From positions 124,001-188,000 of the forward strand of contig QPGO01000152.1 of the NCBI GenBank assembly GCA_008632985.1: DNA of 64,000 nucleotides, given 5' to 3'. Positions 54,907 through 63,723 of this stretch are shown here, one piece after another. The translations under genes and the position numbers were made by a program. The notes below the pieces were generated by a model that had not been told where the DNA came from, made no database searches, and was given only the letters and a program-made list of their open reading frames with translations. This DNA comes from Psammoneis japonica. Its lineage: Eukaryota. The stretch's first letter is position 1. Each line of letters opens with the position of its first letter.

Positions 54907-57900
54907 TCACGCATCATCTACCCCTAATTTCCAGTCCGTTTTCTGGCCAACCTCGTATATAGTGTTCAGTGCCTGCTCGAACCTTCCTTCCTTCTTCAGT
55001 TCTAGTGCCCTATGATAGAGTTTGTAGGCTGTCCCTGCATCCTCGATCGAATCGTGAGTGTCCTGCTGCATATCGTGACCCAACACGTGATTAGCTAGGA
55101 ATCGGAGAGAAATGAACCTCATCTTGTCCTTGTGGAAAATATCTACAGTGTCAATGATCTGACGAGGCGGAACAAACAAGTTGACCATGAAGAAGTCTTG
55201 CCTCAGACCGTGCCCCACAAAAATGCAACCTCTGAGAGCGCAATTCGACGCAGGGGAAGATAGTAAGCACAGCTTTTCCCAGACACAATAACACAGCAAC
55301 CGCATTCTCACCTCTGTAGAAGGAGACGAAGCTTTAGGTACGCAGTGCGCATTGACACAAGATGATGAGGACTCCGTTTTGGGTCTAGATCACGGGCGAC
55401 GATCCCGCTAAATCTTGTGAGATAATCTACAACGGGTTCGTGCGGAAGAACATAGTCATCTATGATGACAGTTCCGTCCCGGCAATCAATGACCGACATT
55501 CTCGCAAGAGTGCTACGCGCTTCTCTAACAGTAACCTTGGAACCTGTGGCAGTTAGAATAGATTTCTCTTCTTGCACTGACACGAACTCAGCATCAAAAG
55601 CGATTAAATCACCGTCACCTGGGAGGTCTGCAATACGAACAAAGAGCAGTGCTGAATCAAAAACATTCAAAAAAGGAGTTGCGCAGCTGCATAGTACTCA
55701 CCCTCGACACTTTGGAAAGTGTACGGCGGTGGTTTGCCATTCCCGATAGACCGTGTGTTCATAACGACAACAGGGGACAAAGGATTATTCTCCACCTCTT
55801 CGTCTAATTCTGCCTCATTCTCCTCATCTCCTTGCCCTTCGTCGACCGCGCGATAAATTACAAGACACGGTTCCTTGAATGGGACGTGAAAAGCCCTTGC
55901 ATCTTCGACGACAGTGTCGGTGACAACATAGCCATTGAACATCACCCAATCGTCCTCAGTGCTGCTGTCGACTTCCTCCAACCGATCTCTCACCATCTCC
56001 GCTCGTTTCAAGAACACTTCCTTGCTTGTGCCAGCAGTTTGTGTTAAATGCCGGAAAGGCTGGTCATCGTCAGGCAAAGCAGCATCTGCAGATACGGCTG
56101 ATTCGGCAATTTGCTCTGCTCGGTCAATCTGGGAACTAAGAACTCGCTTCTTGTAGACCCGAGGAACACGGCAATGTAAGATATGGTGGCCATTATATTT
56201 CTCTTTCTCGGCAGACTCCGAATCATCATGGATGAACGACAGGACCGCATCGAGTCTATACTGAACTTCCCTGCCGTGCTCTCGGCCATTTGTCAATACA
56301 TCAGAAACGGCCCTTGGCAATTTCGACTTGCCACTACACGACCTCCAGGATTTCTGTTCCGGAGCTTCACCATCCTCTTGTAGTTCGCTTACCACCACAT
56401 TCCCGTCCTCCTGCAGTTCCACCTTGACGAATTCGGGCAAAAAGTGTCCGTGTTTAGAATCACCGGATCGCCACACAGACAGTCCGTCATCAGCGCCTCT
56501 CTTTCCAGAACACGAACATGAAAGCGCAAGAACCTTGGGAAGTGATGAAGCAATCTTTCTCTGTACCACAGTTTCATATGAGTTCGAGGTTTTGTTCCAT
56601 GCTCGAAGTCGCGATTCCTTACAGAGGGAGTAACGGAGAATCTCCCTAAACGACGAAGCGTTCCATCCAGAGTTCGGAAGCGGTTCAACGGCCAACTCCA
56701 CTGTCAAAGCCCTAGAGGAAGATACTGAAGGAGGTCCCGAACCCGAAATGAACTCGTTGATGCTGGTGAAACTAAGTCCGTATAGTGAATCAATAAGCTT
56801 TGCATTGGTGGACGAGTCTCCTGACAGATCTCTATCGAGACGATGAAGCAGAAACCTGAAAAATGCTTCTGGACGACGAGCTGTTTCCACCGCAGCCGGC
56901 GCTCCATCCAAGAGCGCAAGGGCTGATGCCTCTGGCGTGACTGTAAACGCTGTCAAGAAATTATAAGGAACGAATGCGCCAACCTTTGCTTTCAGGGAAT
57001 CGTGTGGGCTGCTATTGTCGTTGGGATGGGTAAGGGCGTTCGAACTGATACTTTCAATCTGGTTGAATAGGAATCCTAATTCAGGAGAGAGAGTCGGTGC
57101 CTTCTCGGACGATTTCATGAAGTTTAAGCGACTGTCATGCTGAGATTTGAGGATGGCAGCTCTAATTTCTGGAACAAAATAAGCCAACACCAGAACAGAC
57201 GGAACAAAAGAATTTGGCATTGTATGAGGATACTCCCATCCAGGCCAAAGACCCGTGTTGTTGAATTGAGCATGATCGAAGTACGAAGCACCAATATGAG
57301 TTGGCCTCATGGTAAGGGCATATCGAGGAGGAATTTCGCCTTCATCATCAATCTCTCCGGAACCACCCTTTATTTTCAAGGAGAACGAATCAGTGAGAAA
57401 CAGAAAACAGAAGGAAAGCCCGCGTTGTTTGTACTCACAACTGCCCCGTCATTCCACGATCCCTTCTGCCTTTCACCCCATTTTTTCTTCCCGGCATCCA
57501 CGACTACATCGTAGCAAATACGAACATGCTCCTCAGAGTATATCAACTTGTTCGGATTGGGCAAGGGTTCCATCTCACTATCTGAATCGTTCTCGAGTAA
57601 ACGTAACTTGAGTTCGGAGGTGGGAACAGTAGCAAGATAGTCGTTGTCAACTTTTGTAGTAGCATTCATGACTTCCGAAGAAACATTCCTCTTTGGAGTA
57701 GTCAACAGCGCTTTCTTCGCTAGAGGACCAAATGAATTGTGGTGGTGGCGTCGATCACCGTTTCCCAACGGTGTAAGAGTAGGTTCTGCTAGAAATGTAT
57801 AGAGGGAAAATGCAGCCTTGTTTGGACCATTTTCTCTTATAAGAGTTCTGGGGTCAATGGGAAGTGGTGGTACCGGGGGATCAAATGACGGCATCACCAG

Positions 57901-59613
57901 GGGTTCACGTTGATTCGGATCGGACGGGGTCCCTCTTGCACCTGCACCGCCGCGCGGCATTTGACCCGTCATGTCACTGGCTCCTGACGGCACGAATTCG
58001 CTTCCCATATTCCCAAACGCATGCGTCGTAGCCTCGTATCCCGACATGCGATATTGCAGCAAGTTGCTTCGAGAAGTGCCAAGCGCCATGCTGGGCCCCG
58101 AAATTGCCATTGACGTAATGCTCTCGCCAGGTCCTAGGCTGGGTGCCAAGAAAGATTCAGGAGCACCGTTGCTAGTTTCAAAAGGCGTAATGATTTGCAC
58201 TCCGCCGCCGCTCTGACCACTACATACCAAAACACGGCTGTGACTTTCGTCCTCACTGTTGCCATTGGGTAAGAATGAAACAAGTCGTGGTCCACCCTGC
58301 ATTCCATTGAATGTGTGAACAACACCACCACGGCCCAAGAAGCGTGCGTCGTAGATCATGACAAAGTGATCAGGGTATGCGTAGGGTGTCACTGTGTTGG
58401 AGGATGGTCGAGAGGAGTACCCCGCAGTACAAATTAAATGTCCGTTTTCCGACACTGAGACCGACGTAACTCCGCCGGTATGGCTCTTGATCTTTGCCAG
58501 ATCTAGCCCTCCCCGTTGTCGCCAAGACCCGTCAAAGAGACGTATCGTTCCATCAGAACAGCCCGCCACTATTGCTTGCTTTTGATGATTTGTGGCCATG
58601 GACGTAACTGCAAAAGAATCGTTGTTGCTGTCAGTCTTGAACCCGTGCGACGAAATTATTCGTAATCCCTGATACAGATCCATGCAGTGGGCGTGTTGTG
58701 ATTTGTAAGCCCCCCAAGCTGCTCCACCCACAGTCATGTGCGTCATTGTGCCCCCATCACTAGGGTGCGGTGTGCCGGCCATCATGCCCGACATATCTTG
58801 ATCGCTAACAACCAATCCACCCTGACTGTGCACACGAACAGCAGACGGCGAAACCGACGCAATGTATCCTTCAAAAGGGATTAGTGTCCGAATACCCATT
58901 TGGCACTGTGAAGATGTCAAGGGCGAGACATATGGCGCAGTCTCAACGTCAGATATCCCACCGCAGTAAGGTGGACGGTATGCATGAGGCGGTCTTCGTT
59001 GCTGAGTCCCTCGCGACACCACGCTGCTGGACGAATCAAAATTGTAAATGGTTTTCATGAGAGATTTCAAAACCGCCGAGTCAGCCTCTGGATGTCCGGC
59101 ACATGACGAATATAACATGCCGTCTGTTAAGCTATGAGTAACCAAGAGAGATGCTCTGTTTGTTTGTTGGCCTACTGGACGCCGCTTGCCTGAATGTCCC
59201 ATTGACTGCGTGTGCGATGCGACGTGTATCGCAGCAGACACATCATTGTAAGCTACGGCACTGACGGGAGCTCCGTATAGTTCTGGGATCAAGGGAGCGA
59301 CAGGATAATAACAACCAGGTGGGACTGATGCTTCTGGATTAGCGAGTTGCTGCTGTTGATCTAGCATTTCTGGATGATGATTCCAGTCACCGTACGAATC
59401 CGGGTGGTATTCTTGCAGCTGCGGAGCATACTGGTACCCAGAATCATCATAATACGCCTCCCCTCCACCCATTCCTGGCTGACTCATATACTGGGGTGGT
59501 TGTTGAGCTCCATAGTATGCATCATGATGATCTGCGGGGTTGTTGTTGGGCGGATAGTATGCACCTCCACCGCCGACGTTGTTTGGGTCAAAGTTGGAAG
59601 CGTTGGCGTTCAT
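54907..59613 (-). CDS. PAN2: PAN2 poly(A) deadenylase catalytic subunit (WD40, pseudo-UCH, DEDD nuclease)
   Basis: IAFDAEFV, LARMSVI, IDDY, DYLTRFSGI, FVGHGL..DF, SLRFLA, HDSIEDA; introns 57368-57438, 55628-55701 and 55232-55311. Confidence 0.93.
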
Positions 59614-60459
59614 GTTTCGTGAAACTTCGACCCCAACAATTTCCTAATCACAAATAGACCTTGGATGGAAAAGAGAACTTGCAGTGTTAAACCATCCAGC
59701 CGCCATTTAGTAGTCGCAGCCTCAAGATCCTCCGTTGCTCGTTGCTCATGGGTGTCTGGAGTCTTCGATCACTAAATCAAGCTTCATGTAGAACTCACGT
59801 AATTTTTGTACCATGAGTGGATCTTTCGTATTAAGCTACAGAGAATTCCCGGAATTCGGAATCCAAACTATCACAACTGAGAACTGTGTGCGCGCGAAAC
59901 GCACACAATCTGTGCGGCCCATCTATCTTCCCCTCAATTTCCTTTTCCCCTTCCTTTTCCACCCTCAATTCCTCCCTACATCCACAACTCCTCCACATCC
60001 AGTTCGTTTCTTCCTCCAACAACCTCTTTTCTCTTGTGCCCAACCAAATAAAGATTATGCCAGGTAAGGCATGACAGGGCCTAGAGTACAAAAATATAAT
60101 GTGTGAGACAGAAACATCAGGCCATTTCTTCCGGTCATTTCATATTAGTCATTGTGCACCAGTTTGAAAGAACTTTCCTGTGTCACGTAACGGAATAGCA
60201 TTTGTCCAGTGCAAGAACTCATCTTTATTTTATTATTTAGTATCTATATAAAATTTAATGATGAAAATGACCGAAAGATTTCTCCGTAAGCAGTTTTGAA
60301 CACACATGATTCTCCGTGCGTTGAAGTTCACTCCGAGCGTGGAGCGAAATCGTGACCGTGACCGTGACACCTTGGCAAGTACACACAACGTGAGATGAGC
60401 ACTCTCTCACTTCTCCCGAGGATCGCCTCAGTGTCAGAGATAGAGATCGAGAGGATACC

Positions 60460-63400
60460 ATGAGCGACATTGAAGTTGAAAAAGCCGTTTCGACCGAGGA
60501 GGGTGCCATGAATGGCTCCACCTCCTTGTTGGTGGAGGTCACGGATCTCGACGCCTTTCAAGGAGACACGCTAGAAGCAAAGATTGACAGTTTCATCGAT
60601 GCTCATGGGATTGCCATGATTGCCAAGACGCACTGTCCCTTTTGTCTCGATGCCAAGGAGTTTCTGGCGGAGACTATGGGAGCCCGTGTGCACGTGATTT
60701 CCATCGATACGCATCCTGAAGGCGGCGAGATCTTTAAGATTGTCAAGGACAAGACCAAGCACGCGACTGTGCCCGTCATTTTTATTAAGGGAAGGTTTGT
60801 TGGAGGCTGTGACGATATCAAGGCTCTTGACGCCAAGGACGAACTCGAAGACATGATTGGTGACCTTGTCGAGCATCCCAAGACGATTGGTACGGACACT
60901 CTCGAAACGGCCAAGCTTACTCCCAAAAGCCGCGGAACGGCTCGGAATCCTCCTTTCTGGTTTCCGAACGTTGTCAACAATGTAAGTACGAGCTTGGAGT
61001 GCTCTATACTGTGCTGGCAAAGTCGTATCGCTGGTACTCACGCACGTTATGTTTCTCCTCTTTTCAGTACGTTGTGAGGCTCACTGGTCTTCAAGTGTTT
61101 GGACTTTGCATTGTGAGCATGGTTTTCTACAAGGAGACCTGGGCACAATACCTTGCTCCGGGCTTGCTTGTGGACTTTTGTCTACGCATGGTGGCTGGAT
61201 CGTCGGTGTCGCCCTTGGGTATGATTGCAACCGTCGCTTCGGCACCCTTTCGCCCACAGTTTCGGCCAGGACCTCCCAAGCAATTTGCGGCGCTCTGCGG
61301 AGTATCCTTTACGCTCTTGGCTACCATTTTTTACTTTGTCGACTTTGACGGTCGCGACATTGTCGCGGTTGTCATTCTTGGAATGTTGGCGGTTGCAGCT
61401 GGACTCGAGGCTTTCTTGTAAGTATTGAATGATTGATTGTGGTGTGGCTTTGTTTGGACTGCAGCTCACATAATTTTCGCTGCCGACTTTTTGGTTCTAC
61501 CTACAGTGACTTTTGTTTGGGCTGTCTCTTCTTTAGCTATGGCATTCGGTTTGGGATATTTCCTGATAGTGTCTATCGTATTTACACGTCCTCCAAGCAA
61601 GAAGTCGAGGACAGCTGGGACTATATGTTTCAAGACTCTGGCGCTCCAAAGCCTGAAAAGGTGGATACCGATCCCACGAGCCCCGTTGCTCTCAAGTACA
61701 AGAAGAAGCTCGACGAATGGACCAAGGATGACTTTCACTTGGTTCGAAACATGTCGGTTGGGTATTTTGCAATGCCGCTTGCCATTTTTGGACTCGCCAC
61801 TGCCTTCAAGATTGGTTCAGAGTGGAATGAAGGCCTTCGTCAGCTTCAAAAGGAGAGCACTTCAACCTTTCAGGAGGTACCCGTTGCATGGTTTCAGACC
61901 TTCTCGGTAATTGGAGCTGTCGTGTTCATTATCTTCTTGGTCTTGTACTGCATCCGCTTGTTTCAGTATCCCCACAAGTGTCAAACGGAATGGGAGTAAG
62001 TCAGGACAATCAAGCTGATCTCGTGTTCATTTGTGCCTGATACTCACACTGTCCACACTGTTCTTGTCGTTGTTAGTTGTCCTCTCCGTTCTCCGAGCTT
62101 TGGAGCAATCACTATTTGTTTCATGTTAGGCGCTTTCTTGGTGTACGACCAAATCAACGAAGATAACAACAACACGTCGACGTTTGCTCGTATTATTTTC
62201 TGGATGGGGGCTGTCGCGCAAGTCCTTTTGACCATTTCCAAGATGGGAGAGTGGATTGGGACTCGCCTTGAGCTTGAACACGTTCACCCTCATTGGATGA
62301 TTCTTCCTGTTGGACTGTCCGTTGCAGCCCTGTGTGCTCCCATCATTCCCATGTTTGAGCAAGAGGAAGGCAACGAGGATAACCATGCGGAAGCCAACAT
62401 TCTTGTTGGACGTTTCTTCTTTTCGTTTGCCTTTCTCATGTGGATCACGCTTTTCGTCATTACGTTCTTCAAGGTGGCTACTACGCACAACTCTGACAAC
62501 CGTATTCGTCACGGTGTTTTTATTTGGCTGGCGGCACCATGCATCATTGGTTTGGCGCAGGCCTCCATTTGCCTGTTGGAGGCTGAACAGGGGTTGAGGC
62601 CAGCTCAAGAATGCAGCAATGAATTCTCGAACTATTACTTTATTGGAATGTTCTTCTTCCTTTCCTTCCTATGGGCGACTTTTCCGTACATTGGATTCTT
62701 TGGCAGGGACAAGTTCGGCATGGGATACTGGATTGAGTGCTTTGCATTTGACACTCTCGCAGCATGTTCTGCATTCTTTTACGCACTCAATGGATTCAAC
62801 GCAAGCAAGACGCTCATGTACATTGGTCTTGTTGTGGCGTCAATTGCCAACATGGTGGCTTTGTGCCACACGATTGTCGCGATTATTCGTGGTCGTGGTG
62901 TATTTACTCCGGAAGTCAAGTGGGGACCTTTGTCCTTCATGAAGCTTACCCACGAAGCGTTCCGTGGCAACATTGACAGACTTCGCACCCTTATTGACGC
63001 CGTGGATCTAAACGACAAGTCATCGCAAGGGGAAGCCAACCTTGGGTTATTTGCTGCCTACTTCAATCGTTTCTGCATTGTTCACCATGAACACGCGAAA
63101 CACGAAGATGAAGTGATCTTCAAGACCTTCAACGACTTCTTTAGTGGCCACACCAAGTTCTATAACGACGACCACGCGGCGGATCATATCAAGATGGAGG
63201 GCTGGCGCGAATCTTGCAACATGCTCTTGGATACGAATATGAGCAATGACGTTCGTCAAGAGGCACTTGATTCCCTCAAAGCGGAACTCAACCCGTTCTT
63301 TGACCACTTTGAAGAACATCTCAGGGGCGAGGAAGCCAACCTCCAACCAATTGGAAGGAAGTACATTCCGCTTGAGCTCCAGAAGCAGATTTCACGTGAA

Positions 63401-63723
63401 GTGTTCCTCATTACGAGCGCTGAAAATTGGGAGGTCATTATTCCTTATGTAGTGAACAATGTTCCGCGCCACTTGCAACGAGTGCGCTATCTCAAGGTCC
63501 TCCTTTGGGCGATGCCTGAGCGTGCCCAGCAGATTGGTGCAATCGTCTATCGTAACTCCGATTCAGTTACCTGGGGTACGTGGCCACCTCTGAAAAGAAT
63601 TCAATGCTTTCAACTTGAGGATCTTACCAACTGCTTTACTTTTTATCTCTTGCAGAACGTCTCAAGGTTGATGTTCCTGAAATGATTCCTCGTGCGGCTC
63701 CAGGTTGGAGGAGGTACTATTAG
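60460..63723 (+). CDS. Fusion protein: glutaredoxin, DUF4395-like membrane domain, SLAC1/TDT anion-channel domain, hemerythrin (HHE) domain
   Basis: CPFC, TVP, FVGGCDD; NNYVVR..SPLG..PPKQFA..LEAF|FDFCLGC; YFAMPLAIFGLA, HPHWMILPVG, FIWLAAP, YWIECF; HEAFR, HAKHEDEVIF, HLRGEE; frame-preserving introns 60982-61067, 61418-61506, 61996-62076 and 63576-63655. Confidence 0.85.

What the first reader, a model, noticed from the sequence alone, without database searches (positions are those of the whole stretch)
60460..63723. Glutaredoxin-DUF4395-SLAC1/TDT-hemerythrin fusion: possible redox- or O2/metal-gated anion channel
Four GT-AG introns join one frame containing a dithiol Grx (CPFC), a small membrane domain ending in CLGC, a multi-TM SLAC1/TehA-like domain that keeps a Phe at the apparent gate position (YWIECF) and a His/Glu hemerythrin domain. 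Plant SLAC1 is gated by phosphorylation. A channel carrying its own thiol relay and di-iron sensor suggests a different regulatory logic and gives DUF4395 a functional context. Function is inferred only.
Basis: partly seen in the sequence, partly recalled or inferred. Interest (0 to 1): 0.8.

Follow-up and report, generated by a model that had tools for sequence, protein, structure and literature searches.

The report
Anion channel with built-in redox relay
This intact gene encodes an unstudied membrane protein, conserved in many algae and other protists, that joins a SLAC1-type anion pore to a glutathione-driven thiol relay and an iron-binding domain, so the channel probably responds directly to the cell's redox and iron state.

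Summary
Five exons give one 975-aa frame: glutaredoxin (CPFC), DUF4395, a TDT/SLAC1 pore, a hemerythrin-like domain and a conserved unnamed tail. An intronless paralogue in the same genome and complete transcripts of relatives confirm the fusion. The same domain order occurs in diatoms, brown, green and red algae, haptophytes, choanoflagellates, ichthyosporeans and euglenozoans. The gate Phe (TehA F262), the DUF4395 CxxC and six di-iron ligands are nearly invariant. The iron site is the BRUTUS/FBXL5/RIC type, not an oxygen carrier. DUF4395 nearly always comes with a second dithiol: a thioredoxin-fold neighbour or fusion (22 of 30 actinobacterial loci), its own tail CxxC (87 of the other 88 loci), or here a fused Grx, swapped for an Rdx fold in one choanoflagellate. 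Some bacterial copies lie in sulfur-transfer operons. Best reading (0.45): a redox-controlled anion channel, glutathione to Grx to membrane CxxC, with a di-iron modulator. A catalytic reduce-and-export role for sulfur anions is the main rival. Function is inferred only. Ten paper searches found no description. The scan noted this architecture earlier in two other genomes.

The parts
60460..60981 (+). Exon 1 (aa 1-174): acidic N-terminus with no hydrophobic signal segment, glutaredoxin, linker, start of DUF4395
60595..60864 (+). Class I-type glutaredoxin domain (aa ~46-135): CPFC at 60634-60645, TVP cis-Pro motif, GGCDD
   Evidence: Pfam PF00462 E 8e-12; TIGR02180 73 bits, below its 87-bit cut-off; C59 in 78 of 80 ungapped rows, C62 replaced by S/T in 14
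60982..61067 (+). Intron 1, 86 nt, phase 0
   Evidence: junction gap-free
60964..61561 (+). DUF4395 four-helix membrane domain (aa ~169-309, across introns 1 and 2): conserved R178, R214, K245, Q246, C251, E288 and CxxC C294/C297 (61514-61525)
   Evidence: PF14340 E 4e-16; C294 and C297 each 92 of 95, C251 71 of 95; model of the paralogue domain pLDDT 94.7
61068..61417 (+). Exon 2 (aa 175-291)
61418..61506 (+). Intron 2, 89 nt, phase 2
61507..61995 (+). Exon 3 (aa 291-454): CxxC of DUF4395, conserved linker, TDT TM1-TM2
61996..62076 (+). Intron 3, 81 nt, phase 2; retention gives an immediate stop
61745..62893 (+). TDT/SLAC1 ten-helix pore domain (aa ~371-726, across intron 3); gate Phe F676 at 62741-62743
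   Evidence: PF03595; profile alignment to SLAH1, SLAH3 and TehA; fold Z 37.7, rmsd 2.1 over 306 residues to TehA 3m71 for a homologue's model
62077..63575 (+). Exon 4 (aa 454-954): TDT TM3-TM10, hemerythrin-like domain, most of the tail
62939..63361 (+). Hemerythrin-like di-metal domain (aa ~742-882): H746, H793xxxE797, H820, H868xxxE872
   Evidence: PF01814 E 1.4e-7; ligands in 86-90 of 95; best PDB sequence match FBXL5 E 1.2e-4
63362..63723 (+). Conserved helical C-terminal tail (aa 883-975, across intron 4 and exon 5) and stop; no Pfam family
   Evidence: 61% mean identity, the highest of any domain; R966 92 of 92, G941 89 of 91; no Pfam hit
63576..63655 (+). Intron 4, 80 nt, phase 1
63656..63723 (+). 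Exon 5 (aa 954-975 and TAG)

Best explanation
One polypeptide forms a TDT/SLAC1-type small-anion channel whose Phe-plugged pore is controlled from the cytosolic side by its own redox machinery, instead of by the kinase-read N-terminus of plant SLAC1. Shown by sequence or model: one conserved gene; an intact ten-helix pore with the gate Phe; an intact Grx active site; a four-helix membrane domain with a near-invariant CxxC; a six-ligand di-metal site directly after the last pore helix, followed by a conserved tail; the whole predicted as one packed unit. Inferred: with Grx cytosolic and four DUF4395 helices, the CxxC, C251 and the conserved Arg/Lys/Glu all face the cytosol. Glutathione reduces Grx C59 and Grx reduces the DUF4395 CxxC. 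The state of that dithiol, with the oxidation or occupancy of the di-iron site (O2, H2O2, iron supply), sets channel opening, and the relay may also re-reduce the di-iron centre. The permeant anion and the direction of control are unknown.
For: Same domain order in 49 of 49 long homologues with family-built profiles (32 of 49 carry all four Pfam labels). Intronless paralogue. AlphaFold model of a 57% identical homologue: pLDDT 89.9, pTM 0.88 over 984 aa. Gate Phe = TehA F262, 92 of 95. DUF4395 comes with a second dithiol: a thioredoxin-fold neighbour or fusion in 22 of 30 actinobacterial loci, in at least four gene arrangements. All 22 lack a tail CxxC, while 8 of 8 and 79 of 80 loci without a thioredoxin hit have one, and 0 of 96 eukaryotic fusions have it. 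Grx is replaced by an Rdx fold in Salpingoeca macrocollata. A separate thioredoxin-DUF4395 gene lies in this genome. Di-iron centres with this motif in BTS/BTSL2 are oxidised by O2 and H2O2 and only very slowly reduced by glutathione alone (PMC12022348, passages), a reason to carry a catalyst. One clade that lost the CxxC keeps the gate Phe, as expected if the relay regulates the pore and does not form it.
Against: There are no functional, expression or localisation data. Two or more iron ligands are lost in 7 of 95 homologues, 6 of which keep the CxxC, so the modules are not strictly coupled. The three CxxC-less homologues are one clade, a single event. The thioredoxin versus tail-CxxC pattern follows largely one split between two bacterial subtypes, and the thioredoxin profile was seeded on the first subtype. 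The in-genome thioredoxin-DUF4395 gene has both features. The bacterial subtype closest to the eukaryotic domain has no thioredoxin neighbour.
Confidence: 0.45

Rival explanations
1. Catalytic reduce-and-export module. DUF4395's CxxC in an Arg/Lys pocket attacks a sulfur species (thiosulfate, sulfane sulfur, S-sulfocysteine) or a related oxyanion (selenite, tellurite, arsenate). Grx and glutathione resolve the adduct, and the pore passes the substrate or product, such as sulfite.
For: 7 of 30 actinobacterial loci read LmeA, thioredoxin, DUF4395, rhodanese, SseC, and all 7 have a Cys-rich upstream stretch (5-7 Cys in 10 codons, against at most 4 in the other 23). This matches the cysteine-attenuated Ms5788-cysA2 operon (10.1101/834739, section 5). 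3 of 30 have DsrE neighbours. In the subtype nearer the eukaryotic domain, TauE/SafE lies directly upstream in 3 of 80 loci, a cysKM-family gene in 2 and an O-acetylhomoserine sulfhydrylase divergently in 1. R178, R214 and K245 are conserved beside the Cys.
Against: The strong sulfur link belongs to the more distant bacterial subtype and one lineage. In the nearer subtype no neighbour family recurs in more than 9 of 80 loci, and two of the three TauE loci are close kin (77% identity). The pore is TehA/SLAH-like; that fungal Ssu1 exports sulfite is recalled, and kinship to it was not tested. The identity of Ms5788 as DUF4395 is inferred from gene order; the paper does not name the domain.
Confidence: 0.25
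2. Nitrite/NO module. The di-iron domain acts like YtfE/ScdA (nitrite reductase or NO binder) fed by the thiol relay, and it controls or is fed by a nitrate/nitrite-permeable pore.
For: Same six-ligand motif as RIC proteins; TIGR03652 matches 6 of 11 members weakly (best E 1.2e-4); ScdA and YtfE appear at E 0.08-0.8. YtfE and ScdA reduce nitrite (PMC9052748 and PMC12412097, search listing only; PMC9268430 passage). Nitrate permeability of SLAC/SLAH channels is recalled.
Against: FBXL5 matches better than RICs. The window's own domain has no NCBIfam hit. No ScdA N-terminal domain. PMC9268430 calls the YtfE rate very slow. The family includes heterotrophs such as choanoflagellates and euglenozoans.
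Confidence: 0.12
3. Metal-site reading. The CxxC pairs are ligands for Zn, an Fe-S cluster or a toxic metal(loid) (core CxxC plus tail CxxC in bacteria, core CxxC plus Grx or C251 here), and the protein is an iron- or metal-gated channel with no thiol relay.
For: Core plus tail CxxC would give four Cys in one bacterial subtype. Three conserved Cys in the eukaryotic domain. Closest solved di-iron domain is the iron sensor FBXL5. Moss GSTH joins a Cys-bearing thioredoxin fold to hemerythrin plus about 100 unannotated residues (PMC4138524, passages).
Against: The second Grx Cys is Ser or Thr in 14 of 80 rows, which suits monothiol glutathione chemistry better than a four-Cys site. C251 is replaced in 24 of 95. 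Grx can be swapped for an Rdx fold. That CPFC glutaredoxins rarely bind Fe-S clusters is recalled.
Confidence: 0.13
4. Annotation artefact: adjacent separate genes joined by wrongly chosen splice sites.
For: No transcript of this gene was seen. Many shorter database fragments carry only some domains.
Against: Intronless 963-aa paralogue; four metagenomic contigs with all domains in one stop-free frame (two are near-identical); transcriptome records marked complete; gap-free junctions.
Confidence: 0.01

Closest known systems
Plant SLAC1/SLAH S-type anion channels and Haemophilus TehA (TDT family, PF03595)
   Same: Ten-helix fold (Z 38.6 to SLAH1 9m7s and 37.7 to TehA 3m71, tied), gate Phe, and motifs at TM1, after TM2, TM5, TM7 and TM9.
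   Different: About 20% identity. It carries Grx, DUF4395, a di-iron domain and a conserved tail instead of the phosphorylated cytosolic N-terminus of SLAC1 (recalled); TehA has no extra domain. The same genome also has an ordinary SLAH-like gene with a long low-complexity N-terminus (L140).
Hemerythrin-like sensors FBXL5 and BRUTUS/HRZ
   Same: H-HxxxE-H-HxxxE motif as given for BTS (PMC12022348); best PDB sequence match FBXL5 including the fifth helix (E 1.2e-4); fold Z 10.7.
   Different: Those control ubiquitin ligases; here the domain follows a channel. The match is weak, and PF0695, NMB1532, Mka HLP and DcrH-Hr score alike by fold.
RIC di-iron proteins YtfE and ScdA
   Same: Same ligand pattern; weak profile matches; they too pair a Cys-bearing domain with the di-iron bundle (PMC9268430).
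   Different: No ScdA N-terminal domain; below all cut-offs; soluble bacterial proteins.
Bacterial DUF4395 proteins (including the likely Ms5788 of the mycobacterial cysA2 operon)
   Same: Homologous over the whole domain (profile probability 99.8%, E 1.8e-30); core CxxC; partnership with thioredoxin folds.
   Different: Stand-alone or fused only to thioredoxin; no TDT or hemerythrin neighbour in 80 loci or 30 loci; function unknown.
Hemerythrin GSTs (GSTH) of mosses and lycophytes
   Same: A Cys-bearing thioredoxin fold (CPF/YT) fused to hemerythrin plus about 100 unannotated residues (PMC4138524).
   Different: Soluble GST fold, no membrane part; homology of the tails was not tested.
VKOR/DsbB-type membrane thiol oxidoreductases (recalled analogy)
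   Same: Four membrane helices with a CxxC served by a thioredoxin-fold partner, sometimes fused.
   Different: Neither appeared in the sequence or fold searches of DUF4395; here the CxxC is inferred to face the cytosol.

Membership tests
TDT/SLAC1 family (PF03595) | Profile score above the curated cut-off | tested here: met
   Exon 4 alone 75.9 bits against 27.9; paralogue 93.7. TIGR00816 scores 46.6 against 237 on the exon 4 part only.
TDT/SLAC1 family (PF03595) | Ten-helix barrel fold | tested here: met
   Homologue model versus TehA 3m71: Z 37.7, rmsd 2.1, 306 aligned; TM-score 0.81 on the target.
TDT/SLAC1 family (PF03595) | Pore-blocking Phe on TM9 (TehA F262) | tested here: met
   Profile column of F676 aligns with TehA residue 262, counted from the printed alignment; 92 of 95, 2 gaps, 1 Ile.
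TDT/SLAC1 family (PF03595) | Anion conduction | not testable with these tools
   Needs electrophysiology.
TDT/SLAC1 family (PF03595) | Trimer | not tested
   No oligomer job was run.
Plant SLAC1 orthologues | Kinase-phosphorylated cytosolic N-terminal regulatory region (recalled) | tested here: not met
   The N-terminal 370 residues are Grx, DUF4395 and a conserved linker.
Plant SLAC1 orthologues | Groups with SLAC/SLAH in a tree | not tested
   No plant sequence came back as a usable record; profile and fold scores for SLAH1 and TehA are near ties.
Fungal Ssu1/Mae1 TDT transporters | Sequence kinship to that subfamily | not tested
   No such sequence was fetched; TM1 matches TehA/SLAH.
Class I dithiol glutaredoxin | CP(Y/F)C, cis-Pro TVP and GG motifs; Grx fold | tested here: met
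   CPFC 59-62, P105, G115, G116; Z 17.2, rmsd 1.6 to yeast Grx1.
Class I dithiol glutaredoxin | TIGR02180 equivalog cut-off | tested here: not met
   73.1 bits against 87.25; PF00462 cut-off is passed.
Class I dithiol glutaredoxin | Glutathione-dependent activity | not testable with these tools
   Needs an assay.
DUF4395 (PF14340) | Profile score and two conserved Cys | tested here: met
   59.9 bits against 24.5; C294 and C297 92 of 95.
Hemerythrin-like HHE domain (PF01814) | H-HxxxE-H-HxxxE motif in a four-helix bundle | tested here: met
   H746, H793/E797, H820, H868/E872; motif as stated in PMC12022348; 32.5 bits against 25.3.
Hemerythrin-like HHE domain (PF01814) | Binds two irons and is redox active | not testable with these tools
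   Needs metal analysis and spectroscopy.
O2-carrying hemerythrins | Five His with HxxxH and HxxxxD (motif recalled) | tested here: not met
   Last motif is HxxxE (E872 50 of 50); H824 in only 24 of 50.
RIC proteins (YtfE/ScdA) | ScdA N-terminal domain and TIGR03652 membership | tested here: not met
   No such domain; best E 1.2e-4 in 6 of 11 members, none for the window's own domain.
VKOR/DsbB membrane oxidoreductases | Shared fold with DUF4395 | tested here: inconclusive
   Only generic four-helix bundles at Z 9.5 or less.

The most novel reading that the evidence does not exclude
DUF4395 is a new kind of cytosol-facing membrane thiol oxidoreductase. This protein would then be a self-contained machine in which electrons run from glutathione through Grx and the membrane CxxC to a di-iron centre or a bound sulfur or nitrogen oxyanion, the chemistry being coupled directly to opening of, or flux through, a SLAC1-type pore. 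Such an enzyme-channel would be ancient in eukaryotes, and may be the missing algal kin of plant SLAC channels.
Probability: 0.2. Interest if true: 0.9.

Novelty: new variant of a known kind. Interest (0 to 1): 0.7.

Why it matters
SLAC1-type channels are known from land plants as kinase-gated and from bacteria as bare TehA pores. A four-module version conserved from diatoms to choanoflagellates would add a third control logic, with sensor and reset built into the channel, in organisms that drive much of marine carbon, nitrogen and sulfur cycling. It also makes an uncharacterised family testable: DUF4395 now has a predicted partner (a thioredoxin fold), a predicted active site (cytosolic CxxC in a basic pocket) and a possible sulfur link. 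A 2012 survey said that closer relatives of SLAC-like channels still had to be found in chlorophytes (PMC3509319); this family occurs in green and red algae and is a candidate to test.

Tried and rejected
RNA evidence: no RNA holder was listed for the stretch, so no reads were laid. Complex prediction of Grx against DUF4395 (homologue P0005) returned no verdict, score 0.00; it is not used either way. Single-sequence search of exon 4 against PDB found nothing; profiles were needed. DUF4395 has no solved relative by sequence or a specific fold match; the ESM Atlas returned only DUF4395 clusters and, for the hemerythrin plus tail part, leads under 0.9. No viral relative of the DUF4395 domain: 0 of 28 pattern matches confirmed. 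A conserved operon around the bacterial subtype nearest to the eukaryotic domain was sought and not found: top recurrent family 9 of 80 loci, and no Grx, TDT or hemerythrin neighbour. Of 147 flanking ORFs picked, 143 were scanned with Pfam (66 of 70 upstream, 77 of 77 downstream); none hit a thioredoxin fold, but many picks were wrong-frame ORFs. Co-loss of Grx C117 and the DUF4395 CxxC first looked like coupling but is one clade, so it was dropped as evidence. An arsenic-detox reading (three Cys plus Grx) was considered: the LMW-phosphatase neighbours (6 of 80 loci, opposite strand, mostly close kin) gave no arsenate-reductase model. A tree with plant SLAC/SLAH was not possible: the last homologue search returned only family members and 10 TehA-like proteins of 320-331 aa. 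Ten paper searches: DUF4395 occurs in 2 papers, once each in a list; SLAC1 with hemerythrin 2 listings, SLAC1 with diatom and glutaredoxin 4, SLAC1 with TehA and diatom 0; none of the listings concerns this fusion. The library lacks most subscription papers, and no supplements were searched; expression tables there could mention these genes.
Full report
Observation. Exons 60460-60981, 61068-61417, 61507-61995, 62077-63575 and 63656-63723 give 975 aa without an internal stop, with GT-AG introns of 86, 89, 81 and 80 nt (one search had off-by-one coordinates). Scanned exon by exon, Pfam finds glutaredoxin (E 8e-12), DUF4395 (4e-16), SLAC1 (4e-21, plus 5e-5 in exon 3) and hemerythrin (1.4e-7). No RNA run was available, so splicing of this gene rests on comparison. 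The genome holds an intronless paralogue with a 963-aa ORF and the same four domains, 56% identical over 956 aligned residues. All four junctions align without indels to it and to the 19 database homologues displayed. Four metagenomic contigs carry all domains in one stop-free frame. Several homologues are transcriptome records marked complete.

Distribution. A search with exon 4 among long proteins gave 49 hits from 3998 candidates; 32 of 49 carry all four Pfam labels. Profiles built from the family place the domains in the same order in 49 of 49 (partly circular). Named records include diatoms (Helicotheca, Seminavis, Epithemia, Fistulifera), brown algae (Scytosiphon, Nemacystus, Ectocarpus), Tribonema, the labyrinthulid Mucochytrium, the haptophyte Chrysotila, green algae (Myrmecia, Pyramimonas, Raphidocelis, Pedinophyceae), the red alga Porphyridium, choanoflagellates (Diaphanoeca, Stephanoeca, Salpingoeca), ichthyosporeans (Pirum, Creolimax) and euglenozoans (Lacrimia, Papus). 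An amoebozoan record, Mayorella, starts at DUF4395. None of the named fusion records is prokaryotic, but most records are unnamed. The closest named hits are diatoms, so the window is probably a diatom (inference). Databases label these proteins automatically as glutaredoxin, TehA-like permease or SLAH3. My tree (FastTree on the DUF4395 and TDT columns, midpoint root) does not follow the species tree cleanly and cannot tell ancient origin from transfer.

The pore. The family profile matches SLAH1 (E 1.7e-29), SLAH3 (2.3e-29), TehA (2.3e-27 to 2e-23) and SLAC1 (6.7e-22). The column of F676 aligns with TehA F262, counted from the printed alignment. It is kept in 92 of 95 homologues of 780 aa or more (the set includes several near-duplicates). 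An AlphaFold model of the Seminavis homologue (57% identical; the window's spliced protein itself was not folded) has pLDDT 89.9 and pTM 0.88 over 984 aa, which suggests that the domains pack as one unit. It superposes on TehA with Z 37.7, rmsd 2.1 over 306 residues, and on SLAH1 with Z 38.6. The genome also has an ordinary SLAH-like gene with a long N-terminus and one more TDT gene, so the fusion is an addition, not the only channel.

The di-iron domain and tail. H746, H793xxxE797, H820 and H868xxxE872 are kept in 86-90 of 95 rows. This is the H-HxxxE-H-HxxxE motif given for BRUTUS/HRZ (PMC12022348, passages), not the O2-carrier motif (recalled; H824 is in only 24 of 50). The best PDB sequence match is FBXL5 (E 1.2e-4, including the fifth helix), then ScdA and YtfE at E 0.08-0.8. 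Fold matches are PF0695, NMB1532, FBXL5, Mka HLP and DcrH-Hr at Z 10-13. BTS-type centres are oxidised by O2 and H2O2, and glutathione alone reduces them only very slowly. Seven of 95 homologues have lost two or more ligands, scattered over the tree, and six of these keep the DUF4395 CxxC. The tail, aa 883-975, has no Pfam family yet is the most conserved domain (61% mean identity). With the 78%-conserved linker before the di-iron domain, it is the likely cytosolic contact with the pore (inference).

DUF4395. It folds as four membrane helices with confidence (pLDDT 94.7) but matches only generic bundles. C294 and C297 are each kept in 92 of 95 rows, C251 in 71, and R178, R214, K245 and E288 in 80-87. 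With Grx in the cytosol, these residues all fall at the cytosolic ends of the helices (inference from the helix order). The three rows without the CxxC are one clade and keep the gate Phe.

Bacterial context of DUF4395. The family is in 117 of 301 actinobacterial genomes sampled (seven of the genomes searched are flagged unpublished). Of the 30 best loci, 22 have a thioredoxin-fold gene beside or fused to DUF4395, upstream, divergent, downstream or C-terminal. Seven of these continue with rhodanese and SseC and carry a Cys-rich upstream stretch, and three have DsrE genes (one thioredoxin and DsrE locus, L109, is from unpublished G271). That order fits the Ms5788-cysA2 operon, which is attenuated by cysteine (10.1101/834739, section 5 and passages; PMC4633059, passages). 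The paper does not name DUF4395, so the identification is my inference. The other 8 loci and 80 further loci (the best 80 of 592) belong to the subtype closest to the eukaryotic domain. They show no thioredoxin hit, but 87 of 88 carry a second CxxC in their own tail, which all 22 thioredoxin-linked loci and all 96 eukaryotic fusions lack. Their neighbours are mostly unrelated, with a weak sulfur theme: TauE 3, cysKM 2, homocysteine synthase 1 of 80. In Salpingoeca macrocollata an Rdx fold replaces Grx, Raphidocelis has two Grx domains, and this genome has a separate thioredoxin-DUF4395 gene with both a thioredoxin and a tail CxxC. The common rule is that the DUF4395 CxxC is served by a second dithiol. 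Caveats: the bacterial pattern is largely one subtype split, and my thioredoxin profile was seeded on one subtype.

How it most likely works. I commit to a redox-controlled anion channel (0.45). Glutathione reduces Grx, Grx reduces the membrane CxxC, and that state, together with a di-iron site sensing O2, H2O2 or iron, moves the Phe gate through the conserved linker and tail; the relay may reset the iron centre. The second Grx Cys is Ser or Thr in 14 of 80 rows, which fits monothiol glutathione chemistry. The parts and their conservation are shown; every link between them is inferred. Rivals are a catalytic reduce-and-export module for sulfur or related oxyanions (0.25), a metal-site reading (0.13), a nitrite/NO module (0.12) and an artefact (0.01).

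Comparison and novelty. It is a member of the TDT family by profile, fold and gate residue, but not a plant SLAC1 orthologue by architecture. Its di-iron domain is hemerythrin-like but neither an O2 carrier nor a RIC. Moss GSTH is a precedent for a thiol domain fused to hemerythrin (PMC4138524, passages), and FBXL5 and BTS for hemerythrin as a sensor (PMC4356067, passages). A 2012 survey found only Mae1-like TDTs in algae and mentions neither glutaredoxin nor hemerythrin (PMC3509319, passages). Ten searches of the open library showed no paper on the fusion; subscription papers and supplements were not seen. The scan itself noted the architecture in two other genomes; these are AI notes, not evidence. 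Verdict: a real, widespread, apparently undescribed variant of a known channel family, with a concrete and testable mechanism and no functional data. Interest 0.7.

Noticed in passing
L002:163-3054 (G000:C68): Intronless 963-aa paralogue with all four domains, 56% identical; a convenient construct for expression.
   Followed up: yes
L004:569-1881 (G000:C90): Separate gene with a nucleoredoxin-like thioredoxin (CPHC) in frame with the start of a DUF4395 that ends in a tail CxxC; two introns inferred; no channel.
   Followed up: partly
L140:1399-2928 minus (G000:C202) and L143:997-2995 minus (G000:C52): Two further TDT genes in the genome: a SLAH-like one with a long low-complexity N-terminus, and a more distant one with a conserved-looking C-terminal extension.
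   Followed up: partly
window 60395-60463 +: A 22-codon out-of-frame ORF whose TGA overlaps the main ATG (ATGA). It could be an upstream ORF or chance; the transcript start is unknown.
   Followed up: no
window 55667-59643 -: Divergent neighbour with WD40 and UCH_1 domains, PAN2-like (name recalled), about 850 nt from the fusion's ATG; no functional link seen.
   Followed up: partly
protein P0235 (Salpingoeca macrocollata): An Rdx/SelW-like fold replaces glutaredoxin at the N-terminus of the same architecture.
   Followed up: yes
protein P0191 (unnamed metagenome record): CRAL-TRIO plus glutaredoxin plus DUF4395, ending right after DUF4395; several other short records also end there, so a channel-less Grx-DUF4395 form may exist.
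   Followed up: partly
proteins P0025, P0032, P0236: One diatom-clade lineage has lost the DUF4395 CxxC (P0032 also the iron ligands) but keeps the gate Phe where covered: a possible unregulated or differently regulated channel.
   Followed up: partly
L017:1400-4501 and L036:271-2665: Chloroflexota loci with MoeB-like, cysKM-family and DUF4395 genes in one direction (an Rrf2-like gene leads in L017; MoeB and Rrf2 names read from sequence, not scanned).
   Followed up: partly
L086:7004-7444 (Spirosoma plasmid NZ_CP089539.1): DUF4395 between a sterol desaturase and a phytanoyl-CoA dioxygenase gene, downstream of nirBD; the only plasmid hit among 72,556 records.
   Followed up: no
L131-L134, L136, L137, about 150 nt after the match: The last exon of the conserved tail appears repeated three or four times in tandem in these near-identical metagenomic contigs.
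   Followed up: no
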